Positions 16,819 to 31,201 of a stretch of 64,000 nucleotides of DNA are shown here, in pieces. Within the stretch, counting starts at the first letter, position 1. Every line of letters starts with the position of its first letter. The stretch is from an uncultured Azospirillum sp. (GTDB taxonomy: Bacteria > Pseudomonadota > Alphaproteobacteria > RF32 > CAG-239). The stretch lies in contig CAMYUM010000001.1 of assembly GCA_947301965.1 (NCBI GenBank), positions 190,731 through 254,730 on the forward strand. The letters are read 5' to 3'. Both the position numbers and the translations under genes were made by a program. Below the pieces are notes generated by a model, which ran no database searches, had not been told where the DNA came from, and saw only the letters and a list, made by a program, of their open reading frames with translations.

Positions 16819-18212
16819 GCTGTTTGCTCTTGAGCCAGTTTTTCTGATTTTTGCATATCAGCCAACATATTTTTGCGGGTCTCATCAATTTTGCTGACCT
16901 GATGTTTGAAGTTAGTCAGGTTTTTGCCGGTAAGATTGTTAGCGGCCGTAGCTTTGATGGTCAGAGGATTAACTCTTTGACCGTTACGGATTACTTCATA
17001 ATGCAAGTGGGCTCCAGTAGAACGCCCTGATGATCCGACATATCCGATGGTTTGTCCTTTTTTGACGCGAGTTCCGACATGAATGCCGCGCGCATAACCG
17101 TTCATATGTCCATAGGCAGTTGAGTATTCACTATTATGGCGGATGCGGATATAATTGCCATATCCGTTACGATATTGAGCAACTTCGACAACTCCATCTC
17201 CGGCGGCATATATTGCGGAGCCTCTCGGAGCGGGATAATCAACACCCCAGTGAGTGCGAATGTCTTTGTAAATAGGGTGACGGCGGCGACCAAAATATGA
17301 TGATATGCGGCTGCTTTGATGAGCCATGGGACGACGGCTGAGAAGGTTTTTCTTGATGGCATTGCCTTTGGGGGTGTAATAGTCAACATTGCCGCCGGCA
17401 TCTTTAAAGCGATAAAGCTCCATTTTGTTTTTGCCTAAAGAGATGGAGGCATAAATTATGTTGCCGTTTTTAGCAATGCTGCCATCGGGTAACAGGTAGT
17501 TTTTGTACATGATTTCGTAGGTGTCACCCTTTTTGATGTCGCGTCGAAAATCAACTCCGGCAGAAAATATATGAATGAAATTAGCAACAATACGACTGGG
17601 TACGCCATTGTTGTGCATTGAAGCGGAAACGGTACCGTTAATTTGTCCGGAAACTGATTTTATTTCTTCAATCAGTTCATCTCTGTCAACGCGTGCGGAG
17701 TAGGTGTTATCATCATTAATGGCAACATTCAGGTGTTGTCCGCCTCTTAATGTTGAGGCGAGAGATTTTACCATATATGATCCGTCAATGGTTGCGGTTT
17801 CAATCTCAATTTTTTGGCCGGCACGTAAGTCACGAGGATCAAAAACTTTGCGAATTGATACAAAAACATCGTTGGCGTGTTTGTAGTCAACCCCCATTTC
17901 GGTTAAGATGCTGAGTAATGTATCACCGGATTTTACTTCAATAGTGTATTTGCCGTCGTGGGGAATAGGGTGTCTTTCGGCCTCTTCTTCAGAGATAATG
18001 GTTTCTTCTTCAAAACCATCGTTTTCAACATCATTTTCAAGAACGGCCATGGGCGCAGAATTTGATATTGATGCTTTTACGGAAGTGTTTTTGGCAACAA
18101 CAAAGATAAGCGCCAAAGCCACAGCAAAAGTAGAGCAAAATGTAACTAAACACTGCTTGGTTTTGATAGACGGATAAATTTGTTGCACAAATTCTTTAAG
18201 CAAAAACAACAC
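16797..18212 (-). CDS. M23-family metallopeptidase (MepM/NlpD-like) with LysM-like domain and N-terminal membrane anchor
   Basis: 471 aa; C-terminal M23 signature (GHMNGYARGIHVG…GYVGSSGRSTGAHLHYEV); YTIEVKSGDTLLSIL LysM-like segment; TM helix at aa ~20-40. Confidence 0.7.
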   Translation of the reverse strand: MLFLLKEFVQQIYPSIKTKQCLVTFCSTFAVALALIFVVAKNTSVKASISNSAPMAVLENDVENDGFEEETIISEEEAERHPIPHDGKYTIEVKSGDTLLSILTEMGVDYKHANDVFVSIRKVFDPRDLRAGQKIEIETATIDGSYMVKSLASTLRGGQHLNVAINDDNTYSARVDRDELIEEIKSVSGQINGTVSASMHNNGVPSRIVANFIHIFSAGVDFRRDIKKGDTYEIMYKNYLLPDGSIAKNGNIIYASISLGKNKMELYRFKDAGGNVDYYTPKGNAIKKNLLSRRPMAHQSSRISSYFGRRRHPIYKDIRTHWGVDYPAPRGSAIYAAGDGVVEVAQYRNGYGNYIRIRHNSEYSTAYGHMNGYARGIHVGTRVKKGQTIGYVGSSGRSTGAHLHYEVIRNGQRVNPLTIKATAANNLTGKNLTNFKHQVSKIDETRKNMLADMQKSEKLAQEQTAQSEKVN

Positions 18213-18327
18213 CTTTTCAATTCGCTACTTATATCAGCGGTACTCTAGCATACAGAGCAGAAAATACCAGTTAAAAATACAGGATATCCTATACTTTTAT
18301 TTTTTTAAAATATTATGAAAAAAATAC

Positions 18328-18356
18328 TTGCAAATAAAAAAAATGTTAGTTATAAG
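18328..18356 (+). promoter_or_regulatory. sigma-70-like promoter for tRNA-Asp
   Basis: TTGCAA (18328-18333), a 17-nt A-rich spacer, then TATAAG (18351-18356), ~15 nt upstream of the tRNA 5' end. Confidence 0.35.
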
Positions 18357-18371
18357 GAATAACAAATTTAC

Positions 18372-18448
18372 TGGGGGTGTAGCTCAGTTGGTTAGAGCGC
18401 CTGCCTGTCACGCAGGAGGTCGCGAGTTCGAGCCTCGTCACTCCCGCC
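18372..18448 (+). tRNA. tRNA-Asp (anticodon GTC)
   Basis: Cloverleaf read by eye: acceptor GGGGGTG/CACTCCC, D-arm GCTCAGTTGGTTAGAGC, anticodon loop CTGTCAC, T-arm GGTCGCGAGTTCGAGCCTCG, encoded CCA. Confidence 0.85.
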
Positions 18449-18452
18449 ATTA

Positions 18453-18480
18453 AAAAATCCGCCGAAAAGGCGGTTTTTTT
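18453..18480. terminator. bidirectional rho-independent terminator (tRNA-Asp / grx-like gene)
   Basis: aaaaaatccgccgaaaaggcggttttttt: GC stem flanked by an A-run and a T-run. Confidence 0.6.
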
Positions 18481-18481
18481 A

Positions 18482-18847
18482 TTAGAGTTTCGGATAAAAG
18501 GCTTTTTTTAAGCCAACTTTGTTTTCAATTCCCCAACCCATGACCAATTTGTTGTTGAATATAATTATCGGGGTACCGACAGTGTTTTTGTGAAATTTGT
18601 ATTTTTCAAGATAATGTTTGAGGATTTTGATATTTTCCATATCGTAGGAAATATCTATTTGAGTCACCCGCAAAGAAGGGTTTTTTACAAGAAGGTCGTT
18701 GTTAATAAAATCAACCGCCTTTTCGCAATGAGAGCATCCCTGTTGGGTAAAAATGATAATGTCGGCATCAATATCTTGTTTAGAAGTTTTGCTGCAAGAA
18801 CAAAGCGTGAGAATGGTTACAAACAGTATATAAAAAATATTTTTCAT
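18482..18847 (-). CDS. thioredoxin-fold (glutaredoxin-like, CSHC active site) lipoprotein
   Basis: 121 aa; lipoprotein-type signal (MKNIFYILFVTILTLCSC); QQGCSHCEKAVDFIN CxxC motif in a glutaredoxin-like context. Confidence 0.5.
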   Translation of the reverse strand: MKNIFYILFVTILTLCSCSKTSKQDIDADIIIFTQQGCSHCEKAVDFINNDLLVKNPSLRVTQIDISYDMENIKILKHYLEKYKFHKNTVGTPIIIFNNKLVMGWGIENKVGLKKAFYPKL

Positions 18848-18959
18848 AGCGGTTCCTCAAAACATACTCGGCTAATATTAAAAAAACAAAACTAAATTTC
18901 AAGGCTTTTTAATCTATTTTTTATTTTTTGTGATTATGTTATAACTTTGGAGGTGGGTT

Positions 18960-19319
18960 ATGGCAAAAATAGTTCAGAAAATATCGTCAATTGTTGCAAA
19001 GACGGGCAGAGTTTTCAGGCATCATAAAATTACGATGAACGAAACATCGGCAAAAAGATTGCAGCGTATGATTTTTGAGGCCAGAACCGCAAAGAAAAAC
19101 GGGGATTGTACACCGACTTATGTAAAAATTGCCGAACAAATGAAGGCTCCTCAAAATCAGGTGTTTAATATGGCAATTTATGATTTGGTTAAGATTGCAA
19201 ACAATTCAAGAAGATATAAAAGTGAAATTATAAAAACTATGCAGGATTATGCCGCCGCAGGAGAAAATCCTCCCGAACGTCGCGAAACCGTGCTGAAAAA
19301 AATATCTGAAATAAAATAA
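18960..19319 (+). CDS. hypothetical protein (119 aa, basic)
   Basis: Clean ORF with RBS (ggaggtgggtt atg) and its own terminator; no family recognised. Confidence 0.4.
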   Translation: MAKIVQKISSIVAKTGRVFRHHKITMNETSAKRLQRMIFEARTAKKNGDCTPTYVKIAEQMKAPQNQVFNMAIYDLVKIANNSRRYKSEIIKTMQDYAAAGENPPERRETVLKKISEIK

Positions 19320-19320
19320 A

Positions 19321-19351
19321 AAAAATCCCTCCGAGAAGGAGGGATTTTTTG
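19321..19351. terminator. bidirectional rho-independent terminator
   Basis: aaaaaatccctccgagaaggagggatttttt. Confidence 0.6.
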
Positions 19352-19363
19352 TTGTCGGTTAAT

Positions 19364-20176
19364 TTATTTAATAACTTTACCGTCCAGAGAATATTTTTCA
19401 ATCTGGGCGTCTTTGGCGATGTCGGTCATAACGCTTTTGAGAGCATCACGAGCTAAAATGCCTTTCATCTGGTTTTCGGCATCTTTGTATGACAACGGTT
19501 TGCTGTCACGTACATCATCAACCATGATGATATGATAGCCGAATTGGGTCTTTATCGGTTTTTGTGAGAATTGGCCTCTCTTCATTGAAAAAGCGGCATT
19601 TCCGAAGTCAGGGACCATCATATCTTTGGTGAAATAGCCAAGATCAATCTTTTTCTCTTTGGAATATTTACGAGCCAAATCATCAAATTTTTCGCCTTTT
19701 TTAATACGCTCAATAATGTCGTTGGCGATGGTCTCGTTTTCAACCAAAATGTGACGAGCTTTCATTTCTTTCTCGGAAACGAAGTTGGTTTTATACTGGT
19801 TGTAGAGATTTTTCAAATCGTTTTCGGTGATTTTTTTATCGAGTTCCTGGCGAATAAAGATTTTGCTGGCGATGTCATTGCCGGCAACTTGTATTTGTTT
19901 TTTGTATTCTTCGGAGTTTCTTACGCCGGATTTGTCTGCTGCCTGTTGAACAACTTTGCTGCTGACCCAAGCGTTAAGAGCTTTTTCATAAAAGGCATCC
20001 CATTTTTCCTGATTGTGGATTTGCGGAGTGCCGTCATAAATGGCTTTAATTTCAGCGACTGTGATTTTTTCACCGTTTACAACACCGGCAATACCGCCTT
20101 TGCCCTCGGCGTTGGCGTTAAACGGGTTCAAAACGGCAAGGGATAAAGCAATAGCCGCAATATATTTGGTTTTCAT
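19364..20176 (-). CDS. PpiC/parvulin-type peptidyl-prolyl cis-trans isomerase (SurA-like, periplasmic)
   Basis: Signal peptide MKTKYIAAIALSLAVLNPFNANA; parvulin domain (ARHILV…GYHIIMV). Track start 20191 (MGGTLM) rejected: GGGAGGA RBS is correctly spaced for the ATG at ~20176. Confidence 0.65.
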   Translation of the reverse strand: MKTKYIAAIALSLAVLNPFNANAEGKGGIAGVVNGEKITVAEIKAIYDGTPQIHNQEKWDAFYEKALNAWVSSKVVQQAADKSGVRNSEEYKKQIQVAGNDIASKIFIRQELDKKITENDLKNLYNQYKTNFVSEKEMKARHILVENETIANDIIERIKKGEKFDDLARKYSKEKKIDLGYFTKDMMVPDFGNAAFSMKRGQFSQKPIKTQFGYHIIMVDDVRDSKPLSYKDAENQMKGILARDALKSVMTDIAKDAQIEKYSLDGKVIK

Positions 20177-20344
20177 TAATGTTCCTCCCAAAAAAATAAA
20201 ACTGGTTTAGTTATACCTTAAAATAAAAAATTTCCAAGAAAAATATTTAGATAAAGTTTATAAGTCGGGGCAAACTATTGACTTTATATATTATAAACAT
20301 TAAATGTAAGGTTGACTTATAATATTTAAAAGGTGGTTTTGTCT

Positions 20345-23068
20345 ATGATTGGTAAAATTGCAAAGGCGTTTTTTGGCAGTGCCAATGACCGTTTTATAAA
20401 AAAACAATATAAATTAGTAAATAAAATAAACTCATTGGAACCGTCAATGGAGGCCTTGAGCGATGAGGAGTTGCGCAATAAAACCGTTGAGTTTCGTGAC
20501 CGTTTAAAGCTTGGTGAAACTCTTGATGACTTGTTGCCTGAAGCGTTTGCTGTTGTGCGTGAGGCAGCTAAGAGAACTCTCGGACAGCGCCATTACGACG
20601 TACAGTTAATCGGCGGTCTTGTGTTGCATAAAGGTATGATTGCCGAAATGAAAACCGGTGAAGGTAAAACCTTGGTGGCGACGTTGGCGGCTTATTTGGA
20701 AGCGTTGCCGGGAACCGGCGTGCATATTGTTACGGTAAACGATTATTTGGCAAAGCGTGATGCCGAGTGGATGGGACAGATATATCGCTTTTTGGGGCTG
20801 ACGGTGGATTATATCGTACATGAAAAAAATGACGATGAGCGCCGCGCTGCCTACGCTTGTGATATTATATACGGAACGAATAACGAACTCGGGTTTGACT
20901 ATCTGCGCGATAATATGAAATTTAATCTCGCCGAAATGGTGCAAAGACCTTTCAATTTTGCGATTGTCGATGAGGTGGATTCGATTTTGATTGATGAGGC
21001 CAGAACACCTTTGATTATTTCGGGTGCGGCGGAAGATTCATCAGAAAAATATGTATCGGTTAACAGCATTATCCCGAGTTTGGTCGAAAGCGATTATGAA
21101 AAAGACGAAAAAGCCAAAAGCGTGGTTTTGACCGAAAGCGGTATGGAACACGTTGAAAAGCTTTTGAAAGAAAACGGCCTGATTAAAGAGGGCGGTTTGT
21201 ATGATGTCGGCAATGTTTCGCTGGTGCAACATGTTAATAATGCTTTACGTGCTCACAAAATGCAAACGCGCGATGTTGACTATATTGTGAAAGACGGCAA
21301 GGTAGTGATTATTGACGAGTTTACCGGCCGCATGATGGAAGGACGTCGCTATTCTGATGGTTTGCACCAGGCTATTGAAGCCAAAGAAGGAGTTAAAATT
21401 CAGTCGGAAAACCAGACTTTGGCATCAATCACTTTCCAAAATTATTTTCGTTTGTATCCGAAACTGTCGGGTATGACCGGTACGGCTATGACCGAAGAAG
21501 CAGAGTTTGTTGATATTTATGGCTTGTCGTGTATTGAAATTCCGACGAATCGTCCGATTAAGCGTGAAGACCTGCATGACGAAATTTATATGACGGCGGC
21601 CGAAAAATATGATGCAATTATTAAAACGATTTTGGAATGTCATGAGAAAGGACAGCCGGTTTTGGTCGGTACAACCTCAATTGAAAAATCAGAACTGGTT
21701 GCCGATTTGCTGAGTAAAAGAAGCAAAGTAAAATTTGAAGTGTTGAATGCTCGTCACCATGAACGCGAGGCGGCAATTGTCGCCCAGGCCGGTGTTTCGG
21801 GAGCAATTACAATTGCAACTAATATGGCCGGTCGCGGTACCGATATTCAACTTGGCGGTAATTTGGATATGCGTCTTAAAAATATGCTCAAGGGCGACGA
21901 AACCAAAGAGCAGATAGATGAGCTGAAAGCCAAATTGAAAAAAGAAATAGAGGAGGATAAGGCTAAAGTTATTGCCGCCGGCGGTTTGTTTATTTTGGGT
22001 ACGGAACGTCATGAAAGTCGCCGAATCGATAACCAATTGAGAGGTCGTTCCGGTCGACAGGGTGACCCGGGAACATCAAAATTTTTCCTGTCGATGGAAG
22101 ATGATTTGATGCGCATTTTCGGATCAGAAAGAATGTCGGCAATGCTTACTAAAATGGGAATGCCGAAGGGGGAACCTTTGGTCCATCCGTGGATAAGCAA
22201 AGCTCTTGAAAAGGCTCAACAGAAAGTTGAAGAACGTAACTTTGATATTCGTAAGAACCTACTCAAATATGACAATGTGATGAATGACCAAAGAAAGGTT
22301 GTTTATGAGCAACGTCGTGAGCTGATGATGGCAGAAGATGTTAGCGATACGGTTCGTGATATGCGTGCAGAATATTTGGGTGATGTTATTTCGACCTATA
22401 TTCAGCCGGGAACAGCTCCGAATGAGTGGAAGATTGATGAGCTTAAGCAAGAAATCGGGAGAATTACTGGCTTTCTGCTGCCAGTTGATGAGTGGAGTAA
22501 AGAAGCGGAAATTGACAGCGATGTTATGGAGCAAAGGATTGTCGATACAACCGAAAAATTATTACAAGAAAAGAACGCCGGTCTGCCGGAAGAAATTGTT
22601 CATATGGTTGAAAAAAATATTTTGCTGCAAGTGCTGGATCAGCTGTGGAAAGAGCATATTGCAAGTCTTGACTATATGAGATATACAATTGTTTTACGTG
22701 CATACGGGCAAAAAGATCCGTTGAACGAATATAAAAAAGAAGCGTTCAATATGTTCTCGGATATGCTGGATATGTTAAGAGAACGCGTAACATTCATTAC
22801 ATGTCGTGTTCAAATTCAACCGCAGAATGCCGAAGATTTGCAATTGCGCAGTACCCCGACGAGAATGCAGGAAGTACACGAAACCCCGCAAAATCTGTTA
22901 GGAGGGAATCGTCCGGAACCGCAAGAAAGAAACGTGCCGTTCAAATACGTGAAAACAGAAATTGATCCTAATGACCCAAGCACGTGGGGCAAAGTTTCGC
23001 GTAACGAGCCGTGTCCATGTGGAAGTGGTTTGAAATATAAACATTGTCACGGAAAGATTGCTGTTTGA
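20345..23068 (+). CDS. secA: preprotein translocase ATPase SecA
   Basis: The track start at 20333 is GTG. The ATG at 20345 ([12 protein letters not shown]…) is the canonical SecA N-terminus. The C-terminal zinc motif [14 protein letters not shown] is present. Confidence 0.9.
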
Positions 23069-23075
23069 TAAATTA

Positions 23076-23105
23076 AGGTCGCCTTGTAATGGGCGGCCTT
23101 TTTTA
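23076..23105 (+). terminator. rho-independent terminator after secA
   Basis: aaggtcgccttgtaatgggcggcctttttt. Confidence 0.55.
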
Positions 23106-23169
23106 ACCTGAATTTAAGATGTGTATATATACAATACTATCACTTATTAATAACTGGAAAGGTCATGAA

Positions 23170-24276
23170 ATGAAAAAATATATACTTAGTTTGTTTTTGA
23201 TTGTGGCCCTTGTTGGCTGTGGAGAGAAAGCAGAAACCTCCAAAAAAATTGAAAAACCAACCATCAAAATTGGTGCGCAACTTCCTTTGAGTGGAGAATA
23301 TGCTCGCATCGGCTCTGCCAATCAACAGGCAATTATGATGGCTTTGGAAAAATGGAAAAACAAAAATACCAAGTATAATTATGACGTGGTATTTGAAGAT
23401 GACCAAATGTCGACCGCTCGCGCGGCAGTTGTTGCAAATAAACTTATTTCAAGTGACAAGGTTAAAGCCATTATTTCTACTTGGGGGATTGTTGGTCCGG
23501 TTGTTGCCAATATCGCTGATCAAAACAAAGTTTTGAGCATGGCTTGTGCCGGCATGAAAGAAATTACCACTCCATACTATTCTTTTAATCATTTTACCCA
23601 AGATGACAAATTGGCAGAAAAGCTAATTCCGTTGTTGAAGGAAAATAATGTAAATTCTGTGGTATTGGTATATACGGCAGCCGCTGCCTATGACGAAAAA
23701 GCCAAAGTTATGGAAGCAAAGTTGAAAGAAAGCAATATTGATGTTTTGGCTGTTGAAAGATATAATATTCAAGAAAATGATTTTAGAATATCAATATATA
23801 AAATGGAGGAACTCAATCCTGATGCATATATAAATTTTGTTCTTATGCCGGGAACCCCAAGTTTTATCAGACAGTTTAACGAAATTACCAAAGGCAATCG
23901 TATGATGGTAGGCTTGCACGTTTTCAACGAAATGCCATCTCAATATTGGCCGATGGTTGAAGGATTATATTCAGTTAGAGATTCCAATGGAACTGCCGAG
24001 TTTAGCAAATCTTTCAAAGAGAGAACTCAAGTTGATAATCAGCCATGCAATGGCAACCATTTTGACAATTTAGATTTGTTAATTTGGGCATTTGAAAATA
24101 CGCCACTTCGTGAAGGCGAAAAACTTCCGAATACTGAAGATGTTGTAAAAACGCTCCACGGAATAAAAAATTGGTATGGTGCTGTTGGAGAAATTTCGGT
24201 TGAAGATTCAGGCTTGATTAACTCTGAAGCAATATTAGAGATATATAGAGATGGCAAACCTGTAATTGTTGAATAA
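23170..24276 (+). CDS. ABC-transporter substrate-binding lipoprotein, type-I periplasmic binding fold (Leu/Ile/Val-binding-like), orphan
   Basis: Start MKKYILSLFLIVALVGCGEK (lipobox LVGC) with RBS ggaaagg. ANF_receptor-like composition. No permease or ATPase gene lies adjacent. Confidence 0.55.
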   Translation: MKKYILSLFLIVALVGCGEKAETSKKIEKPTIKIGAQLPLSGEYARIGSANQQAIMMALEKWKNKNTKYNYDVVFEDDQMSTARAAVVANKLISSDKVKAIISTWGIVGPVVANIADQNKVLSMACAGMKEITTPYYSFNHFTQDDKLAEKLIPLLKENNVNSVVLVYTAAAAYDEKAKVMEAKLKESNIDVLAVERYNIQENDFRISIYKMEELNPDAYINFVLMPGTPSFIRQFNEITKGNRMMVGLHVFNEMPSQYWPMVEGLYSVRDSNGTAEFSKSFKERTQVDNQPCNGNHFDNLDLLIWAFENTPLREGEKLPNTEDVVKTLHGIKNWYGAVGEISVEDSGLINSEAILEIYRDGKPVIVE

Positions 24277-24306
24277 TAAAATTCGCAGTTGCTGTTTAGT
24301 TTTGAA

Positions 24307-24335
24307 AAGCCGCTCTAATCAAGCGGCTTTTTAAT
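24307..24335. terminator. bidirectional terminator between SBP gene and glycosylase gene
   Basis: aaagccgct ctaatca agcggcttttt. Confidence 0.5.
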
Positions 24336-24344
24336 TTTCTGTGT

Positions 24345-24905
24345 TTATTTGTCCTTATCAATTTTATAATATGATGGGATATCAGGTTGCAAACCTCCGC
24401 AAATGATATTTTTCTTACTAAAACATATAAATTGTAATAAGGCATATTCCCACTCTTTAAGCTTTGTTTTGTCTGGTATTGAGGCATTAGCTGGACTTGT
24501 AGAGGGAAGTTGTCGGTATATTCGGTCGTTTAGATATTCTGCATTATATTTTTCAAAATATTTTTGTGCCTTTTTGCCATTAAATAAAACATACTGGACA
24601 GATTGAAATTTAGAAAAATCATTGTATTGCTCTTTTTTTATTTTTGAATCTAAACTTCCTTCTCTTTCGCATACTGATAAAGCATCCCACAGTCCAATAT
24701 TATATTTTTGCAAGAGCTGTTTCTTTTCGTCTTTAGTTTTTAATTCGTTGCTTTTATTTAATATTTTTTCAATATACGACCAAAACTTATTATGAGGATT
24801 TGCATAATACATTTGCTCATAAATAGATTGTTCCCCTGGCATTGTGCCGACAATTAAAATGCGCGTATTTTCATTTATCCATGGTTCTAAACATTTCTTT
24901 TTCAT
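24345..24905 (-). CDS. DNA-deoxyinosine (hypoxanthine-DNA) glycosylase, UDG superfamily family 6
   Basis: 186 aa. ILIVGTMPGEQSI…MYYANPHNKFW and LWDALSVCEREGSLDSKI match the characteristic motifs of the hypoxanthine-DNA-glycosylase family as I recall them. Confidence 0.6.
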   Translation of the reverse strand: MKKKCLEPWINENTRILIVGTMPGEQSIYEQMYYANPHNKFWSYIEKILNKSNELKTKDEKKQLLQKYNIGLWDALSVCEREGSLDSKIKKEQYNDFSKFQSVQYVLFNGKKAQKYFEKYNAEYLNDRIYRQLPSTSPANASIPDKTKLKEWEYALLQFICFSKKNIICGGLQPDIPSYYKIDKDK

Positions 24906-24920
24906 ATTATTCTCCTATGC

Positions 24921-25310
24921 TTATTGCTTCTTTTTAGCTTTGGTTTCTATAACGTTGTAATTGTAACAAGCCCAAATCAAAGCAATTAACCAACCGACGA
25001 ATGTCCATCCAGCAAGAAGGTTTAACAAAAAAACAGGTAAGATTTGATTATGATTCCTGTACAAAGCTATAAAATAAGGGATAAAATATATAAATGTTAA
25101 AACAACCTCAGCAATTATAAATACTGAAATAAAAACAACTTTAGAAGTTACTTCAATTTCAACGCCGTGAAGGTCAACCCAAAAAGGAGGTTCAATTCCA
25201 TAAAAAATATTAATCGGAACTAATGATTCTAGGATTATCAATATACACGAGATAATAAATGTCCAGTCTTTAGTATTTAAACTTTCTTCTTTAATCTCTT
25301 TCTTTTTCAT
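24921..25310 (-). CDS. small membrane protein of the superinfection-immunity (Imm_superinfect-like) family
   Basis: 129 aa with 3 predicted TM helices. The C-terminal YFIPYFIALYRNHNQI…LNLLAGWTFVGWLIALIWA matches the signature of that family (…GWTxxGWxxALIWA). Confidence 0.45.
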   Translation of the reverse strand: MKKKEIKEESLNTKDWTFIISCILIILESLVPINIFYGIEPPFWVDLHGVEIEVTSKVVFISVFIIAEVVLTFIYFIPYFIALYRNHNQILPVFLLNLLAGWTFVGWLIALIWACYNYNVIETKAKKKQ

Positions 25311-25604
25311 ATTCTTTTTTCTTTATATTATTCCGAGCTAATATAAAAAGTTTATCATCTGTTAATTATATTTCAATAGGTTTTATCTGTAGAACAATTA
25401 ACAAAGAATTATTGATGTTCATAGTATTTTGGAAACCAAGTGGAAATAACGCCTCATTTTTCTCTTGACTCTGATAATTAATCTGTTATGTTGAGCGCAG
25501 TTTCAATGATTTTTCATTGTGAGTTTTTGTTTTAACCACTCTACGGAGTGCCGCCAGTCAGCGAGGGTTCGCACACTGGCGTGCAATAGTTTGTATAGGT
25601 TTGT

Positions 25605-26981
25605 ATGTTCGAAAATTTGACAGATAAACTGGGCAGCGTGTTTGCCAAAATAACCTCAAGAGGTGTCTTGAATGAAAAAGACATTGATGAGGCTATGCGC
25701 GAAATTCGTGTTGCGTTATTGGAGGCAGATGTTGCTCTGCCGGTAGTCAAAGAGTTTATTGCCAAAGTTAAAGAACAGGCTCTGGGCGAGAAGGTTATTC
25801 GCTCAATTCAGCCCGGGCAGATGGTGATTAAAATTGTTCACGATGAATTGGTAAAAGTTTTGGGAGCAGATGAAAGTTCCTTAAACTTTAATGTGGTACC
25901 TCCAGCGGTTATTTTAATGACCGGTTTGCAAGGTTCCGGCAAAACAACAACCTCCGCAAAATTAGCCAAGATGTTGGGTAAAAAGCGTAAAGTTATGTTG
26001 GCATCGTTGGACGTTTATCGTCCGGCCGCTCAGGAGCAGTTGGCACAATTGGCAGATCAAATCGGCGGTTCAAGTTTGCCGATTGTGCAATGGCAGAAAC
26101 CGTTGGAAATTACAAGGCGGGCATTAGATGCAGCTAAAAAAGGCGGCTATGATGTTTTGATTTTGGACTCAGCCGGACGTTTACATATTGATAATGATTT
26201 GATGAATGAGTTGGTTGAAGTTAAAAAAATTGCAACTCCGGCGGAAATTTTGTTGGTGGCCGATGCAATGATGGGGCAAGATGCTTGCAATGTTGCAAAA
26301 GAGTTCAATGAAAAACTCGGTGTTACCGGAATCGTACTGACGCGAATCGACGGCTCATCACGTGCCGGTGCGGCTTTGTCAATGCGTATGGTGGCACAGG
26401 TGCCGGTCAAGTTTTTGGGTACCGGAGAAAAGATTGATGAATTTGAAGAATTTCATCCAGACCGCATTGCCGGACGTATTTTAGGACAAGGCGATGTAAT
26501 CAGTTTGGTCGAAAACGCAATTGAAAAAATTGATCGTGAAGAAGCTGACAAGATGGCACAACAAATGATGAAAGGTAAGTTTGATCTTGATGATTTGTTG
26601 AGCCAGTTGAGGCAAATTCAAAAACTGGGCAGTTTGGGCGGAATAATGTCGATGATCCCTGGGATGTCCAAGTTTAAAAATCAAATAGAAAATGCCGGAA
26701 TCGGTGACAATCTTATTAAAAAGCAAGAAGCAATTATTCTTTCAATGACAAAACTGGAAAGAAAATCTCCGGATGTGATTAAAGCTTCACGCAAAAAAAG
26801 AATTGCCGCCGGTGCAGGTGTGGAAGTTCATGAGGTCAATAAGCTCTTAAAACAATATGAGCAGATGGCCGGAATGATGAAAAAATTCGGCAACGGCGGC
26901 TTGAGCGGCATGATGTCGATGATGAAAAAATTTCCGATGGGCAATTTGCACGGAGGAATGGGAAACAGGTTTCCGTTTTAA
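25605..26981 (+). CDS. ffh: signal recognition particle protein Ffh
   Basis: 458 aa; N/G domains (GLQGSGKTTT) and Met-rich M domain. Confidence 0.9.
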   Translation: MFENLTDKLGSVFAKITSRGVLNEKDIDEAMREIRVALLEADVALPVVKEFIAKVKEQALGEKVIRSIQPGQMVIKIVHDELVKVLGADESSLNFNVVPPAVILMTGLQGSGKTTTSAKLAKMLGKKRKVMLASLDVYRPAAQEQLAQLADQIGGSSLPIVQWQKPLEITRRALDAAKKGGYDVLILDSAGRLHIDNDLMNELVEVKKIATPAEILLVADAMMGQDACNVAKEFNEKLGVTGIVLTRIDGSSRAGAALSMRMVAQVPVKFLGTGEKIDEFEEFHPDRIAGRILGQGDVISLVENAIEKIDREEADKMAQQMMKGKFDLDDLLSQLRQIQKLGSLGGIMSMIPGMSKFKNQIENAGIGDNLIKKQEAIILSMTKLERKSPDVIKASRKKRIAAGAGVEVHEVNKLLKQYEQMAGMMKKFGNGGLSGMMSMMKKFPMGNLHGGMGNRFPF

Positions 26982-27032
26982 GCCATTAGGGCGGAAATTG
27001 TTTTTTTAATTTAATTTAGAAAGGAATATAAA

Positions 27033-27419
27033 ATGGCAGTTCGTATCAGATTATCTCGCGGAGGTTCTAAAAAGCGTCCGTTTTATCGTATTGTGGCAGC
27101 TGATTCAAGAGCTCCTCGCGATGGTAGATTTATTGAAAAACTCGGAACATACAATCCATTGTTGCCTCAAGACCATGAGCAAAGATTGGTTGTTAATGCT
27201 GAGAGAGTTAAATATTGGCTCGGTATCGGTGCTTTGCCGACAGAAAGATTGGCAAAATTGTTCTCTAATCTTGGTTTGACTAAGGCTCCGACAATACATG
27301 AACAACCGAAAAAATCTGCTCCTAAAGCTAAAGCTGTTGAGAGAATGAAAGCTAAAGAAGAAGCTGCTAAGGCTGCTGCCGAAGCTACATCTGCGGCAAC
27401 CGAAGGAAGTGCAGAATAA
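27033..27419 (+). CDS. rpsP: 30S ribosomal protein S16 with Ala/Lys/Glu-rich C-terminal tail
   Basis: [21 protein letters not shown]…; ~45-aa low-complexity tail. Confidence 0.9.
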
Positions 27420-27434
27420 TTTAAGGATTTTTAG

Positions 27435-27980
27435 ATGCAGAATCGTTCAAAAATTTGTCTGGGTGCAGTTGTCGGTGTCCACGGTATTAAGGGTGAAGTA
27501 AAAGTAAAAAGCTTTACCGAACAAGATCGTAATATCGACAAGTATGGCGTGTTGACGGATCAAAAAGGGCGATCTCTGGAAATAAAAGTAGTCGGTCATT
27601 CGAAAGAATTATTGCGAGTTAAAATTAAGGGAGTTGATGATAGAAATCTTGCGCAGACATTTATCGGAACGCAATTGTTTGCGGAACGTGATGTGCTGCC
27701 ACCACTGACCAATAAAGAAGAGTTTTACCAGGCAGATTTGATCGGTCTAGACGTTCGCGAAGCTGCTTCGGGTAATGTGGCAGGCAAGATTGTGGGAATT
27801 TATAACTTTGGTGCGGGCGATATTCTGGAAATCAAAGTTAAACAAAGCGGAAAACTTGAAATGATTCCTTTTAATCACGCATATGTGCCGACGGTCAATA
27901 TCGAAGATGGTTATATTATTGTAAATTCTGTTTCAATGCAGTTTGAACCGGAAGATGGAGAAGAAGGTGCTGAAAGCTAA
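27435..27980 (+). CDS. rimM: ribosome maturation factor RimM
   Basis: 181 aa; RimM N-domain and PRC barrel. Confidence 0.8.
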   Translation: MQNRSKICLGAVVGVHGIKGEVKVKSFTEQDRNIDKYGVLTDQKGRSLEIKVVGHSKELLRVKIKGVDDRNLAQTFIGTQLFAERDVLPPLTNKEEFYQADLIGLDVREAASGNVAGKIVGIYNFGAGDILEIKVKQSGKLEMIPFNHAYVPTVNIEDGYIIVNSVSMQFEPEDGEEGAES

Positions 27981-28659
27981 AATCTTTACCATTTTTCCCG
28001 AAATTTTCCCAGGTTTTTTGGGCTATTCTTTAACCGGAAAAGCTCTGGATGAAGGGGTTTGGACAATTGAAACAATTAATATCAGGGACTATGCAACAGA
28101 CAAGCACGGTTCGGTTGATGATACACCTTGCGGAGGCGGGGCAGGAATGGTAATGCGCCCGGATATTTTGGGGGCGGCAATCAAAGCCAATTATTCAAAA
28201 GGAAGAATTTTGGCGATGAGCCCGAAGGGGAAACCTCTTACGCAAGAAATGGTCAAAGAACTGGCGCAGGAAGATGAAATAGCAATTGTCTGCGGCCGTT
28301 TTGAGGGGATAGATGAGAGAGTCATTGAAGCTTATGGAATAGAGGAAGTAAGCATCGGTGATTATGTCTTGACCGGCGGTGAGCAGGCAGCACAGATTTT
28401 GCTTGATGCGGTGGTGCGTTTGTTGCCCGGAGTATTGGGAAATTCCGAATCAACATTGTCAGAAAGTTTTGAGGACAATTTGTTGGAGTATCCGCAATAT
28501 ACTCGTCCGACAGAATGGGAAGGACGCAAGGTGCCTGAAGTGTTATTGGGCGGCCATCATAAAAAAATCAGTGATTGGCGTAAGGAACAAGCAATAAAAA
28601 CCACTCAAGAGAGAAGACCGGACCTATGGAAAAAATATCTTGACTCTAAAAGGGTTTAA
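27955..28659 (+). CDS. trmD: tRNA (guanine37-N1)-methyltransferase TrmD
   Basis: KIFTIFPEIF… SPOUT-class sequence. The start is ambiguous: ATG at 27943 or 27955, or GTG at 27967 behind GGAGAAGAAGG. All candidates overlap the rimM 3' end. Confidence 0.85.
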   Translation: MEKKVLKAKIFTIFPEIFPGFLGYSLTGKALDEGVWTIETINIRDYATDKHGSVDDTPCGGGAGMVMRPDILGAAIKANYSKGRILAMSPKGKPLTQEMVKELAQEDEIAIVCGRFEGIDERVIEAYGIEEVSIGDYVLTGGEQAAQILLDAVVRLLPGVLGNSESTLSESFEDNLLEYPQYTRPTEWEGRKVPEVLLGGHHKKISDWRKEQAIKTTQERRPDLWKKYLDSKRV

Positions 28660-28699
28660 GCATAGAAAGTAACAAACATTTTAAGAAAAGGTAACAGTT

Positions 28700-29086
28700 A
28701 TGAACATTTTGAAAGAAGTTGAAAAAGAGCAGATTGCAAAGCTCAGCGAAGGAAAGAACTTTCCTGAGTTTAAGGCAGGCGATACTTTGAGAGTTCACAC
28801 CAAAGTTAAAGAAGGTGACAGAGAACGTATTCAGGTTTATGAAGGCGTTTGCATTGCCCGTAAAAATGATGGTTTGAATTCTTCATTTACCGTTCGTAAA
28901 ATCTCTTTCGGTGAGGGCGTAGAGCGTGTATTTCCGCTGTATTCACCGAATATTGCCAAGATTGAGGTTTCTCGTATCGGTAAAGTTCGTCGTGCAAAAT
29001 TGTATTTCTTACGTGCTTTGCGCGGTCGTTCGGCTCGTATTGCCGACGATTTGTCTGCTTCTGCAAAGGCTAAAGACGCAGAATAG
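28700..29086 (+). CDS. rplS: 50S ribosomal protein L19
   Basis: 128 aa; canonical L19 sequence. Confidence 0.9.
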
Positions 29087-29107
29087 TTTTTAGCAAAAGC
29101 TTGTTTG

Positions 29108-29146
29108 ATAATCAGCCGCTTTATTTTTAGAGCGGCTGATTTTTTG
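29108..29146 (+). terminator. rho-independent terminator after rplS (stem ATCAGCCGC/GCGGCTGAT)
   Basis: gataatcagccgctttatttttagagcggctgattttttg. Confidence 0.6.
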
Positions 29147-29439
29147 TCTAAACGGATCAAAAAGAGAATCGTGAATTTGACTCAACGGGAGTCAGAGCAA
29201 GCGATTCCGGTTTTGTAAAAAAATAAAAAAATATGATTTTTTTGCTTGCATTATAATATTGAATATGTTACAAAGCGCACACATTAACTGGGTGGACAGG
29301 AAGAATTAGTCCATTCGGTTGTAATAAAAAATATCCCGCAAATCCTTGAATTTTATAGGTTTTTGCATAGGTTAATTGTTTAGTCGGCCAGTTCGCTAAA
29401 TGCGAATCGTGCCGTCTAGTTATAGGAAAAGTATTTAAA

Positions 29440-29751
29440 ATGATGGATACACAAAATATAAGAATTCGCCTCAAGGCTTTTGATCATCGTTTGCTCGATT
29501 TATCTACAACAGAAATCGTTCATACAGCCAAAAGAACAGGGGCAAATGTAAGAGGTCCGATACCTCTTCCGACACGAATTGAGAAGTTTACGGTTAACCG
29601 TTCTCCCCACGTAGATAAAAAATCTCGTGAGCAGTTCGAAATCAGAACCCACAAAAGACTTCTTGACATCGTTGACCCAACACCGCAAACCGTAGATGCT
29701 TTGATGAAGCTTGATTTGGCAGCCGGTGTTAATGTCGAAATTAAACTGTAA
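29440..29751 (+). CDS. rpsJ: 30S ribosomal protein S10
   Basis: [14 protein letters not shown]… canonical; ~350-bp untranslated leader upstream; no tuf upstream. Confidence 0.9.
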
Positions 29752-29843
29752 TTGTTTGTTATAAATAATTACCCGTAATAATAAAGCAATGTTGGCTTTC
29801 GTGAAATAAAGTTAGTCAACCTATTGAAAAGGAAAAAATAAAA

Positions 29844-30563
29844 ATGCGTACTGGTTTGATCGCAAAAAAATTGGGAATGTCCCGTATTTTTGAAGCAAAC
29901 GGAACTCATGTACCGGTTACTGTTTTGAGTGTTGACAATCTTCAGGTTGTTGCAGTTAAGACAAAAGAAAAAGACGGCTATGATGCTGTTCAGCTCGGTA
30001 CCGGTGCTGTTAAAGCCAAGAATGTTTCAAAAGCTTTGAAAGGACATTTTGCCAAGGCTAATGTTGAGCCTAAAAAGAAATTGGGTGAGTTCAGAGTTTC
30101 TGAAGACTGCCTGCTTTCTGTCGGTTCTGAATTATCTGTAGAACATTTTGTCTGCGGACAATATGTTGATGTTTGTGCAACCTCTTTAGGTAAGGGTTTT
30201 GCCGGTGTTATGAAACGTCATAACTTTGCCGGTTTGGAAGCCAGCCACGGTGTTTCTATTTCTCACCGTTCACATGGTTCTACAGGTCAAAGACAGGACC
30301 CGGGTAAAGTATTCAAAGGCAAAAAGATGGCCGGCCACATGGGTGCTGAACGCGTAACCGTTCAAAACCTGAAAGTTGTGGCTATTGATGCTGACAAAGG
30401 TTTGATTATGGTTAAGGGCGGTGTTCCCGGCGGTGAAAACGCTTGGGTTCGTGTTACCGATGCCGTTAAGAAAACAGCTAATGTAAAGCTTCCTTTGCCT
30501 GCTGGTTTGAAAAAAGTTGATGCACCTGTCGCAGTTAAAGCTGAAACAGCTGATAATGCATAA
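29844..30563 (+). CDS. rplC: 50S ribosomal protein L3
   Basis: 239 aa; canonical L3. Confidence 0.9.
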
Positions 30564-30571
30564 GATAAAGG

Positions 30572-31201
30572 ATGAAAGTTATGAAACAGGACATCTTAAG
30601 TTTAGATAATAAAAACGTTGGTTCAATTGAACTTAATGAATCGATTTTCGGTTTGGAAGTCAGAGCTGATGTTTTACAAAGGGTTGTAAGATGGCAATTA
30701 GCCAAAATGCAAGCCGGCACCCACAAAACCAAGGGTCGCTCGGAAGTTGCTTTGACACCTTCGAAACCTTTCAAACAAAAAGGTTCCGGTAATGCCCGTC
30801 AAGGTAGCCGTAAGGGTACTCAGTTTAGAAAGGGTGGAGTTGTGTTTGGTCCGGTTGTTCGTGACCAGTCACATGAGTTGACCAAGAAATTCAGACAACT
30901 GGGTCTGAAGATTGCTCTTTCTTCAAAAGTGAAGGAAGGCAACTTGGCAGTTATTGACGAAGCAAAATTGTCTTCTCCAAAGACTAAAGATTTGCAAAGC
31001 AAGTTGAATAATTTGGGATGGAACAATTGTTTGTTTATCGCCGGTAACGAAGTAGATATTAATTTTGCTTTGGCATCACGCAATATTGCCGGTGTAGATG
31101 TTTTGCCGACAATGGGTGCCAATGTATATGACATCTTAAGAAGAGACAAACTGGTGTTGACTAAAGACGCCGTTAACTGCTTGGAGGAAAGACTGAAATG
31201 A
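30572..31201 (+). CDS. rplD: 50S ribosomal protein L4
   Basis: 209 aa. Confidence 0.9.

What the first reader, a model, noticed from the sequence alone, without database searches (positions are those of the whole stretch)
24296..25604. Two-gene accessory insert in front of ffh: hypoxanthine-DNA glycosylase plus a superinfection-immunity-type membrane protein
- A convergent pair of genes lies between an orphan SBP gene and ffh.
- One is a family-6 UDG-like deoxyinosine glycosylase (motifs MPGEQSI…YYANPHNKFW, LWDALSVCEREGSLDS).
- The other is a 129-aa 3-TM protein ending …RNHNQI…LAGWTFVGWLIALIWA, the signature I associate with phage-type superinfection-immunity proteins.
- The pair is bounded by a hairpin terminator on the left (24307-24335) and a 290-bp AT-rich non-coding stretch on the right.
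- This looks like a remnant of a mobile or phage-derived defence/repair module rather than core genome.
Basis: partly seen in the sequence, partly recalled or inferred. Interest (0 to 1): 0.5.

Follow-up and report, generated by a model that had tools for sequence, protein, structure and literature searches.

The report
Strain-variable gene islet between secA and ffh
Two small genes in front of ffh, a hypoxanthine-DNA repair glycosylase and a membrane protein related to phage T4's superinfection-immunity protein, are real accessory genes in a gene-swapping hot spot of a gut or rumen alphaproteobacterium, and this is an ordinary kind of variable region, not a prophage remnant.

Summary
Both genes exist and both HMMs hit. 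The 186-aa ORF scores 143.9 bits against TIGR04274 (cutoff 80). The 129-aa ORF scores 60 bits against PF14373 (cutoff 27.9) and keeps the equivalents of T4 Imm R33 and W50.

Two details of the description are wrong. The genes are tandem on the minus strand (imm-like then hdg, 15-nt spacer, Shine-Dalgarno site), not convergent. Only the left 146 bp of the "AT-rich stretch" is AT-rich. The right 148 bp is the conserved ffh promoter plus a structured ffh-leader RNA.

"Accessory insert" is supported:
- The two genes have the lowest GC of 62 genes in the window.
- Six related species have an empty secA-ffh gap, and none of 80 species representatives carries the Imm gene.
- A same-species contig (98% nt identity in both flanks) carries a different cassette.
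- Synonymous divergence of the cassette is decoupled from that of the flanks.

"Phage or mobile remnant" is not supported. There is no integrase, tRNA, flanking repeat or phage gene, and no close relative in viral contigs. Both genes are under purifying selection (dN/dS about 0.2).

Best reading: cargo of a recombination hot spot, made of a BER glycosylase plus a domesticated phage-entry blocker. Both are known families, so interest is low.

The parts
23067..25456 (.). Variable cassette (2,390 bp, GC 0.329) between the secA stop codon and the conserved ffh promoter.
   Evidence: Identity to the same-species contig L005 is 98.0% up to 23066 and again from 25457. In between, only the hdg segment aligns, at 85%. 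The empty-site genome L014 aligns only to the two edges. GC.
23075..23104 (+). Hairpin plus T-run after secA (AAGGTCGCCttgtaatGGGCGGCCTTTTTT), the likely secA terminator.
   Evidence: Read directly from the sequence (output). The consensus scan did not call it. Empty-site genomes have an equivalent hairpin in the same place.
23119..24276 (+). Orphan substrate-binding lipoprotein gene (Peripla_BP_6). The likely true start is the ATG at 23167 (MKKYILSLFLIVALVGC lipobox).
   Evidence: PF13458 scores 113.5 bits. No ABC permease or ATPase gene is adjacent. Among relatives it is present only in L008/L009, and it is split in L008.
24302..24334 (.). Bidirectional intrinsic terminator shared by the SBP gene (+) and the imm-hdg operon (-).
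   Evidence: 13-pair stem, 7-nt loop and T-run on the + strand, with an A-run 5' of the stem (I19). It is homologous to the secA/hdg terminator of L005.
24345..24905 (-). hdg: family-6 UDG-superfamily DNA-deoxyinosine (hypoxanthine) glycosylase, 186 aa. It has a C-terminal extension of about 22 aa shared only with the P0006/L005 lineage.
   Evidence: TIGR04274 scores 143.9 bits against a cutoff of 80, and PF03167 scores 38 bits. All 38 invariant columns of a 9-sequence cross-phylum alignment are kept. The closest solved structure is 2l3f_A (E 7e-24). dN/dS is 0.17-0.20.
24921..25310 (-). imm-like gene: 129-aa inner-membrane protein. An N-terminal extra TM helix and a short loop precede a T4-Imm-type core (residues about 57-116).
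   Evidence: PF14373 scores 60 bits against 27.9, and PHROG 1039 scores 69 bits. It is 33% identical to T4 Imm over 64 aa (E 2e-12), with T4 R33 aligned to R85 and W50 to W102. Hydrophobic segments are 15-40, 52-84 and 90-116. dN/dS is 0.17-0.22.
25311..25456 (-). AT-rich (GC 0.247) upstream region of the imm-hdg operon, with a promoter-like site (TCTACA-17-TATAAT, 25393 to 25365 on the minus strand).
   Evidence: The region is collinear with L008. In L001 a YpsA/SLOG-like gene is inserted within this stretch.
25457..25604 (+). Conserved ffh promoter (TTGACT-16-TATGTT, 25465-25492), the CAATGAtttttCATTG palindrome (25504-25519) and a structured ffh leader (25537-25581). This is the right border of the cassette, not part of the insert.
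   Evidence: The stretch is 77-98% identical across all species that share the locus. Rfam RF01793 'ffh' scores 29.1 bits (gathering 35), E 0.0011, at 25552-25581. Covariation: 97.5% of cells paired and 7 of 16 pairs with compensatory changes.

Best explanation
The finding is the cargo of a small recombination hot spot, not a prophage scar.

In this group of uncultured gut and rumen Alphaproteobacteria, the gap between the core genes secA and ffh is a site where short gene cassettes are gained, lost and swapped. The window's allele (23067-25456) holds an orphan binding-protein gene and a two-gene minus-strand operon. That operon is transcribed from a promoter in the AT-rich 146 bp upstream of the first gene and stops at the shared hairpin at 24302-24334.

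Gene 1 is an inner-membrane protein whose core is homologous to phage T4 Imm. By analogy (inferred), it sits in the membrane and blocks genome entry of some tailed phages by binding their tape-measure protein. Gene 2 is a family-6 UDG-superfamily enzyme that (inferred from equivalog membership) removes hypoxanthine, the deamination product of adenine, to start base-excision repair.

The two are co-transcribed and travel together in several lineages. Nothing shows that they need each other, because hdg occurs alone elsewhere. The cassette has no mobility genes of its own. It most likely spreads among related species by homologous recombination through the conserved secA and ffh flanks.
For: Shown:
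- Gene families.
- Operon anatomy: same strand, 15-nt spacer with an SD site, a promoter-like site and a terminator.
- Hot spot: in 16 species representatives the secA-ffh gap holds nothing (6), an Elm1-like gene, Elm1 plus a 1088-aa gene, or hdg plus an ATPase fragment plus Elm1.
- Within-species polymorphism: L005 is 98.0% nt identical in both flanks, with breakpoints exactly at the secA stop codon and at 25457.
- Atypical composition: z = -3.5 and -3.7.
- Cassette history decoupled from the flanks. Against L008, dS is 0.59 for hdg and 0.39 for imm, versus 1.43 for ffh and 1.72 for secA. Against L005, dS is 0.46 for hdg versus 0.15 for secA and 0.32 for ffh.
- The flanks themselves are mosaic: L012 is 82.5% identical on the secA side and 93.9% on the ffh side.
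- Purifying selection on both genes (dN/dS about 0.2).
- The pair sits at the same site in at least five contig lineages.
- No mobility hallmarks, and no close relatives in viral contigs.

From the literature:
- T4 Imm binds the tape-measure protein gp29, and R33A and W50A reduce its exclusion activity (bioRxiv 10.64898/2026.03.06.709160).
- Family 6 UDG excises hypoxanthine and lacks uracil activity (PMC8307549, PMC5387724).
Against: - Neither function was tested.
- PF14373 is a 42-residue membrane domain, and homology to T4 Imm does not prove an exclusion function in a non-phage gene. The extra N-terminal TM helix has no counterpart in T4 Imm.
- The structure model is of low confidence (pLDDT 57.7).
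- The lower dS of the cassette could be partly an effect of its extreme AT bias.
- The relatives are metagenome contigs and MAGs, so mis-binning and unseen second copies elsewhere in the genomes cannot be excluded.
- Recombination through the flanks is inferred from mosaic identities, not observed.
Confidence: 0.7

Rival explanations
1. Prophage or mobile-element remnant: the pair is what is left of an integrated phage or island that once carried a superinfection-exclusion 'moron' gene and a repair gene.
For: - The Imm domain is typical of phages: 1489 phage records and PHROG 1039.
- The nearest Imm homologue outside the clade lies in a phage-like array of small genes with an HTH repressor and T5orf172 (L102).
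- GC is low.
- The allelic cassette in L005 contains a truncated defence ATPase.
Against: - No integrase, transposase, tRNA, att-like repeat or phage structural or regulatory gene is present in the window or in any of about 10 related loci.
- There are no close relatives in IMG/VR.
- hdg is almost absent from phages.
- Both genes are intact with dN/dS about 0.2.
- The same arrangement occurs at the same core-gene junction in lineages only 75-79% nt identical in the flanks.
Confidence: 0.12
2. A functional two-layer anti-phage module: the membrane protein blocks phage genome entry, and the glycosylase attacks phage DNA that carries deaminated or modified purines. It would act like the antiviral UDG-superfamily glycosylases Brig1 and Brig2.
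For: - UDG-superfamily glycosylases act in defence and tend to lie in A/T-rich, horizontally acquired regions (PMC11078745; bioRxiv 10.1101/2025.10.29.685425).
- hdg lies here next to an exclusion-type gene, in L005 next to a PtuA/AriA-like fragment, and in L095 among Mrr, WYL, T5orf172 and an integrase fragment.
- The linkage is tight and operon-like.
Against: - The protein is a high-scoring equivalog of the housekeeping family and keeps all invariant residues.
- PADLOC gives no hit for either gene.
- In other lineages hdg sits next to dtd and a nucleoside transporter without any defence gene.
- The Imm-hdg pairing is confined to one sub-clade.
Confidence: 0.1
3. Ordinary core genes: both are vertically inherited housekeeping genes of the clade that merely look odd in composition.
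For: - The position is conserved between secA and ffh in several lineages.
- Both genes are under purifying selection.
Against: - The Imm and SBP genes are absent from the site in all 80 species representatives, and the gap is empty in six.
- The cassette is polymorphic within a species.
- Its dS is decoupled from that of the flanks.
- Its GC is the lowest in the window.
Confidence: 0.04

Closest known systems
Family 6 of the UDG superfamily: hypoxanthine-DNA glycosylase (HDG; TIGR04274 DNA-deoxyinosine glycosylase; prototype Methanosarcina barkeri HDG)
   Same: - It matches the equivalog HMM over its full length, well above the cutoff.
- Motif A (GTMPG), N39-x-FW, LWD, CERxGSLDS and motif B (LPSTSPAN) are all kept.
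- The closest solved structure is the uncharacterised family member 2l3f.
   Different: - It has a C-terminal tail of about 22 residues, shared only with one sister lineage.
- It is encoded in a strain-variable, low-GC cassette and co-transcribed with a membrane protein. In other lineages the gene is free-standing.
Phage T4 Imm / Pfam PF14373 Imm_superinfect / PHROG 1039
   Same: - It is 33% identical to T4 Imm over 64 aa.
- The domain HMM scores above the gathering threshold.
- The residues equivalent to R33 and W50, needed for full T4 Imm exclusion activity, are conserved.
- Predicted helices match a TM helix followed by a helical hairpin.
   Different: - It is 129 aa rather than 83-94 aa, with an extra N-terminal TM helix and a loop of about 20 residues found only in this clade.
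- It is chromosomal, with no phage around it.
- It has no close relative in viral contigs.
Strain-variable islets at recombination hot spots between conserved core genes (often enriched in defence genes)
   Same: - It has fixed borders at two core genes and alternative cargo in close relatives, including an empty state.
- GC is low, and the divergence of the cargo is decoupled from that of the flanks.
- One allele contains a defence-ATPase fragment.
   Different: - It is very small (0-5.7 kb).
- No integrase or recombinase is present.
- Most of the cargo is not recognisable as defence: an SBP, an Elm1-like putative glycosyltransferase and a repair glycosylase.
Brig1/Brig2 antiviral UDG-superfamily glycosylases
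   Same: It belongs to the same superfamily, lies in an A/T-rich acquired region and has defence-type neighbours.
   Different: - It belongs to the repair family 6 by HMM.
- No defence phenotype is known for family 6.

Membership tests
UDG family 6 / TIGR04274 DNA-deoxyinosine glycosylase | Scores above the curated cutoff of the equivalog HMM over its full length | tested here: met
   143.9 bits against a cutoff of 80; residues 6-152 match profile positions 2-150 of 150.
UDG family 6 / TIGR04274 DNA-deoxyinosine glycosylase | UDG-superfamily domain with conserved motif A (G-x-x-P-G) and motif B (P-S-x-S-x-x-N) | tested here: met
   PF03167 scores 38 bits against 24.3. GTMPG and LPSTSPAN lie in invariant columns of a 9-sequence cross-phylum alignment.
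UDG family 6 / TIGR04274 DNA-deoxyinosine glycosylase | Excises hypoxanthine from DNA and lacks uracil-DNA glycosylase activity | not testable with these tools
   This is a biochemical property. Literature basis only: PMC8307549 and PMC5387724.
Imm_superinfect (PF14373) / T4 Imm | Domain HMM above the gathering score and significant pairwise similarity to T4 Imm | tested here: met
   60 bits against 27.9. BLASTP against T4 Imm gives E 2e-12 and 33% identity over 64 aa.
Imm_superinfect (PF14373) / T4 Imm | Conservation of residues shown to matter for T4 Imm exclusion (R33, W50) | tested here: met
   R85 and W102 align with T4 R33 and W50. W102 is invariant in the alignment.
Imm_superinfect (PF14373) / T4 Imm | Encoded by a phage or prophage and expressed to exclude superinfecting phage | tested here: not met
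   There are no phage genes within the 64-kb window around it. It has no close relative in IMG/VR. The flanks are secA and ffh in all lineages.
Imm_superinfect (PF14373) / T4 Imm | Blocks phage genome translocation by binding the tape-measure protein | not testable with these tools
   This needs phage challenge and binding assays. The mechanism is known only for T4.
Prophage remnant / integrative mobile element | Integrase, transposase or recombinase, or their fragments, at or near the insert | tested here: not met
   None appears among the ORFs of the cassette or its neighbours, nor in the related loci.
Prophage remnant / integrative mobile element | Insertion at a tRNA/tmRNA gene or flanking direct (att) repeats | tested here: not met
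   The only tRNA is 4.6 kb upstream of the cassette's left edge, at 18373-18449. No direct or inverted repeat brackets 23067-25456.
Prophage remnant / integrative mobile element | Atypical composition and presence/absence polymorphism among close relatives | tested here: met
   GC z-scores are -3.5 and -3.7. Empty sites and alternative cassettes occur in relatives. This feature is shared with non-mobile recombination hot spots, so it does not discriminate.
Known anti-phage defence systems (PADLOC-DB 2.0) | Either protein matches a model of a known or candidate defence system | tested here: not met
   No family matches either protein at E <= 0.1. The library dates from 2023 and may not include Brig-type glycosylases.
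Rfam RF01793 ffh motif (right border of the finding) | Bulged hairpin immediately 5' of ffh that reaches the gathering score | tested here: inconclusive
   29.1 bits against a gathering score of 35, E 0.0011. The position upstream of ffh and the covariation support a structured relative: 97.5% of cells paired and 7 of 16 pairs compensatory, against 20-46% in slid controls. No locus of the clade reaches gathering.

The most novel reading that the evidence does not exclude
The imm-like and hdg genes form a dedicated two-layer anti-phage operon. The membrane protein would block genome entry at the inner membrane. The family-6 glycosylase would have been recruited, like Brig1 and Brig2 from other UDG families, to create abasic sites in phage DNA containing inosine or modified purines that gets through. 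That would make family 6 UDG a third UDG lineage co-opted for immunity, and it would be the first case of an entry blocker genetically coupled to a DNA-targeting effector.
Probability: 0.08. Interest if true: 0.6.

Novelty: new member of a known kind. Interest (0 to 1): 0.2.

Why it matters
The practical value is modest. The locus gives a clean, well-bounded example of a micro hot spot between two essential genes (secA and ffh) in an uncultured gut and rumen alphaproteobacterial clade. It has empty, alternative and within-species polymorphic states that could serve as a strain marker.

It also shows that a T4-Imm-type protein can be kept under purifying selection as a chromosomal gene without any prophage. 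That is relevant to how often phage exclusion genes are domesticated by hosts.

If the speculative coupling of Imm and HDG were real, it would extend glycosylase-based immunity to UDG family 6. Present evidence does not favour that.

Tried and rejected
- Exact-sequence look-ups of both window proteins and of the 100%-identical P0005 found no record, so the source genome could not be named.
- Scans of IMG/VR viral contigs with each protein found no relative.
- A JGI metagenome scan with the alignment of the three full-length Imm-like proteins found nothing.
- PADLOC gave no hit for either gene.
- Plasmid searches gave only 19 and 22 distant hits among 72,556 records, so there is no plasmid link.
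- The repeat search found no att-like repeats at the cassette edges. The top 'repeat' is just the similar MKKK start of both genes.
- The structure prediction of the Imm-like protein came out at pLDDT 57.7. I used only its secondary structure and ran no fold search, because a low-confidence model gives meaningless matches.
- I tested whether hdg-Imm pairing is general. It is not: hdg homologues at 51-69% identity lie in four other contexts without Imm.
- I considered that the conserved GC-rich element before ffh might be SRP RNA, and rejected it. Rfam gives no SRP hit and instead a sub-threshold match to the ffh motif.
- Rfam at gathering threshold on the window and on seven related loci found only tRNAs.
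Full report
**1. What is in the sequence**

Between secA (20333-23068, +) and ffh (25605-26981, +) lie three ORFs:
- A 385-aa periplasmic-binding lipoprotein gene on the + strand (23119-24276).
- Two ORFs that are both on the minus strand: 24921-25310 (129 aa) followed by 24345-24905 (186 aa).

The two minus-strand ORFs are therefore tandem, not convergent with each other. Fifteen nucleotides separate them, and AGGAGA lies 5 nt before the second ATG. As a unit they converge on the binding-protein gene and diverge from ffh.

A 13-pair hairpin with a T-run lies at 24302-24334 and is preceded by an A-run. It can terminate both the + strand gene and the minus-strand pair. A promoter-like site (TCTACA-17-TATAAT) lies on the minus strand at 25393-25365, upstream of the 129-aa ORF.

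**2.

Both are positive.
- The 186-aa protein scores 143.9 bits against NCBIfam TIGR04274 (DNA-deoxyinosine glycosylase, equivalog, cutoff 80) over the whole profile. It scores 38 bits against Pfam UDG.
- It retains every invariant column of an alignment with homologues from Alphaproteobacteria, Flavobacterium and Clostridia. These include GTMPG, N-x-FW, LWD, CERxGSLDS and LPSTSPAN.
- Its nearest solved structure is the uncharacterised family member 2l3f (E 7e-24).
- The 129-aa protein scores 60 bits against Pfam PF14373 Imm_superinfect (gathering 27.9) and 69 bits against PHROG 1039, 'immunity to superinfection'.

I fetched T4 imm itself from NC_000866.
- The window protein is 33% identical to it over 64 residues (E 2e-12).
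- T4 R33 and W50 align with R85 and W102. A 2026 preprint reports that R33A and W50A reduce exclusion activity and that Imm acts by binding the tape-measure protein gp29.
- Compared with T4 Imm, the window protein carries an extra N-terminal hydrophobic helix (about 15-40) and a loop of about 20 residues. Only its two closest relatives share these.
- An AlphaFold model is of low confidence (pLDDT 57.7). Its secondary structure is H13-37, a β-hairpin at 43-54, H57-84 and a helical hairpin at 90-116, which agrees with the topology above. I did not use the model further.

**3. Composition**

The two genes have the lowest GC of 62 genes in the window: 0.299 and 0.292, against a mean of 0.42 and sd of 0.035. 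Their GC3 is 0.25 and 0.26 (profile).

The 294-bp non-coding stretch is two things:
- 25311-25456 has GC 0.247.
- 25457-25604 has GC 0.405.

**4. Is it accessory? An unbiased test**

I anchored on Ffh, not on the genes in question, and pulled 80 species representatives with 10-kb flanks. All are uncultured gut or rumen Alphaproteobacteria MAGs, variously labelled Rhodospirillales or 'Azospirillum sp.'.

Sixteen representatives keep ppiC-secA-[gap]-ffh-rpsP. Their gap holds one of the following:
- Nothing (189-283 bp) in six, including L014, whose Ffh is 94% identical.
- Only an Elm1-like gene of about 410 aa in seven.
- 753 bp with no ORF of at least 60 aa in one (L027).
- Elm1 plus a 1088-aa protein in one (L028). 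In L032 a related 1082-aa protein lies next to a shorter, 347-aa Elm1-like ORF.
- hdg plus an ATPase fragment plus Elm1 in one (L013).

None has the Imm or binding-protein gene.

The pair does occur in metagenome contigs found through the proteins themselves. It is always between secA and ffh (L001-L004, L008-L011, L104). That makes at least five contig lineages, whose flanks are only 75-79% nt identical to the window where contigs are long enough to measure (L001, L008).

The sharpest result is L005.
- It is 98.0% identical to the window over 17001-23066 and 25457-31000, so it is the same species.
- In between it has no binding-protein gene and no Imm, and its hdg allele is only 85% identical.
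- It also carries a 106-aa C-terminal fragment of a PtuA/AriA/GajA-type ATPase and the Elm1-like gene.

The variable cassette is thus 23067-25456. Its edges are the secA stop codon and the start of the conserved ffh promoter.

**5. How it got there**

There is no integrase, transposase or phage gene. The only tRNA is 4.6 kb upstream of the cassette's left edge, and no repeat brackets the cassette. Neither protein has a close relative in IMG/VR. Plasmid hits are few and distant.

Synonymous divergence is decoupled from the flanks.

| Comparison | hdg | imm | secA | ffh |
|---|---|---|---|---|
| dS, window vs L008 | 0.59 | 0.39 | 1.72 | 1.43 |
| dS, window vs L005 | 0.46 | absent from L005 | 0.15 | 0.32 |

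The flanks are themselves mosaic. L012 is 82.5% identical on the secA side and 93.9% on the ffh side. L014 is 80.3% and 88.5%.

I infer that cassettes are exchanged among related species by homologous recombination through the conserved flanks. This is an inference from identities, not an observation. The extreme AT bias may also depress dS somewhat.

Both genes are under purifying selection (dN/dS 0.17-0.22), so they are functional genes and not decaying remnants.

**6. Are the two genes a functional unit?**

They are co-transcribed by anatomy and travel together in one sub-clade. However, hdg occurs without Imm in several other settings:
- In the same species (L005).
- Next to dtd and a nucleoside transporter (L098, L099).
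- Next to APH and inositol-phosphatase genes (L092).
- In an island with Mrr, WYL, T5orf172 and an integrase fragment (L095).

The Imm domain itself is abundant in phages: 1489 records, at most 49% identical, covering only residues 51-120. Its nearest homologue outside the clade lies in a phage-like array of small genes with an HTH repressor (L102). By contrast, hdg is nearly absent from phages.

The simplest reading is that two independent cargo genes share a promoter. One is a repair glycosylase. The other is a phage-derived entry blocker that the host lineage has kept.

**7. The defence reading**

UDG-superfamily glycosylases (Brig1, Brig2) are now known as antiviral effectors in A/T-rich acquired regions. 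In three contexts hdg has defence-type neighbours: Imm here, a PtuA-like fragment in L005, and Mrr/WYL in L095.

Against this:
- The protein is a high-scoring equivalog of the repair family with all invariant residues.
- PADLOC has no hit.
- Other lineages keep the gene in housekeeping contexts.

I give this reading about 0.08-0.1.

**8. The right border**

The conserved 148 bp before ffh contains:
- The ffh promoter (TTGACT-16-TATGTT).
- A conserved palindrome, CAATGAtttttCATTG.
- A three-stem element at 25537-25581.

The core of that element matches Rfam RF01793 ('ffh' motif) at 29.1 bits, below the gathering score of 35, with E 0.0011. On 25 distinct sequences from the clade, 97.5% of cells pair and 7 of 16 pairs show compensatory changes. 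The slid controls pair at 20-46%.

The original description of the motif said it was absent from Rhodospirillales (PMC2704228). This clade has a divergent version with an added 5' hairpin. It is the border of the cassette, not part of it.

**9. Verdict**

The errors are the orientation of the pair and the nature of half of the non-coding stretch.
The region is accessory and partly phage-derived in ancestry, but it is not a mobile-element or prophage remnant.
- Both genes belong to known families, and the locus is an ordinary kind of recombination hot spot.
- Classification: new member of a known kind. Interest about 0.2.

Noticed in passing
window 25537-25581 (within the conserved block 25457-25604): A structured RNA lies immediately 5' of ffh: hairpin CACTC-nnnn-GAGTG followed by CGCCAGT..(GCGA-GGGT-TCGC)..ACTGGCG. 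It is a sub-threshold match to the Rfam ffh motif RF01793 (29.1 bits against 35, E 0.0011) and has strong covariation in 25 distinct sequences (7 of 16 pairs compensatory). The 2009 description said the motif was absent from Rhodospirillales. No locus of this clade reaches Rfam's gathering score.
   Followed up: yes
L036, L040, L041, L043, L050, L054, L070, L073, L079, L084, L089 and others, within 170 nt upstream of ffh: More distant species carry a second, different GC-rich conserved element before ffh (…GCAACGCGGTTTCGGGGCAG…GCTCAGGCCGCGCCTGCGTGCAATAG…). It sometimes occurs in tandem with the first element (L033, L034, L056, L066). Both end in the same GCGTGCAATAGT box. There is no Rfam hit at gathering.
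   Followed up: no
window 25504-25519: A perfect palindrome, CAATGA-tttt-TCATTG, lies between the ffh -10 box and the leader. It is conserved in nearly all species that share the secA-ffh arrangement. It may be an operator or a small hairpin.
   Followed up: no
L005:7670-7990 (same in L006, L007, L013): In the same-species alternative cassette, a 106-aa ORF directly upstream of hdg is the C-terminal fragment of a defence-type AAA ATPase. It scores 52.9 bits to PADLOC PtuA and also matches AriA, GajA and Pfam AAA_21. It is the remnant of a Septu/PARIS/Gabija-like gene at this hot spot.
   Followed up: partly
window 24345-24420 (C-terminus of hdg): The glycosylase has a C-terminal tail of about 22 residues (…FSKKNIICGGLQPDIPSYYKIDKDK) that runs almost into the terminator. 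Only the P0006/L005 lineage shares it, where it is conserved with substitutions. All other homologues end about 160-164 aa.
   Followed up: partly
L095:1-12492: An hdg homologue (63% identical) lies in a different island with ankyrin-repeat, Mrr-type restriction, WYL, T5orf172, Tlde1-domain, CAT and integrase-fragment genes. This looks like a defence or mobile context.
   Followed up: no
L008:6642-7711 versus L009:5038-6147: The orphan binding-protein gene is split into 78-aa and 290-aa ORFs in L008 but is intact (369 aa) in the near-identical L009. This suggests it is decaying in some strains. Window against L009 gives dN/dS 0.056.
   Followed up: partly
L001:6643-7068: In the L001/L002 lineage a 141-aa YpsA/SLOG-like gene (Pfam 19.6 bits, below the cutoff) is inserted exactly between the Imm promoter region and the ffh promoter. 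That is the same junction where the window cassette ends.
   Followed up: partly
L028:6559-9825 and L032 (secA-ffh gap): Two species carry a 1082-1088-aa ORF with no Pfam or PADLOC match in the same secA-ffh gap, next to the Elm1-like gene.
   Followed up: partly
window 18436-18483 versus L014:1953-1999 and L014:2160-2207: A 48-nt segment that overlaps the 3' end of tRNA-Asp (18373-18449) and extends just past it is present twice (91.7% identical) in L014, about 200 bp apart. It may be a duplicated tRNA 3' end or an att-like remnant, and it is unrelated to the finding.
   Followed up: no
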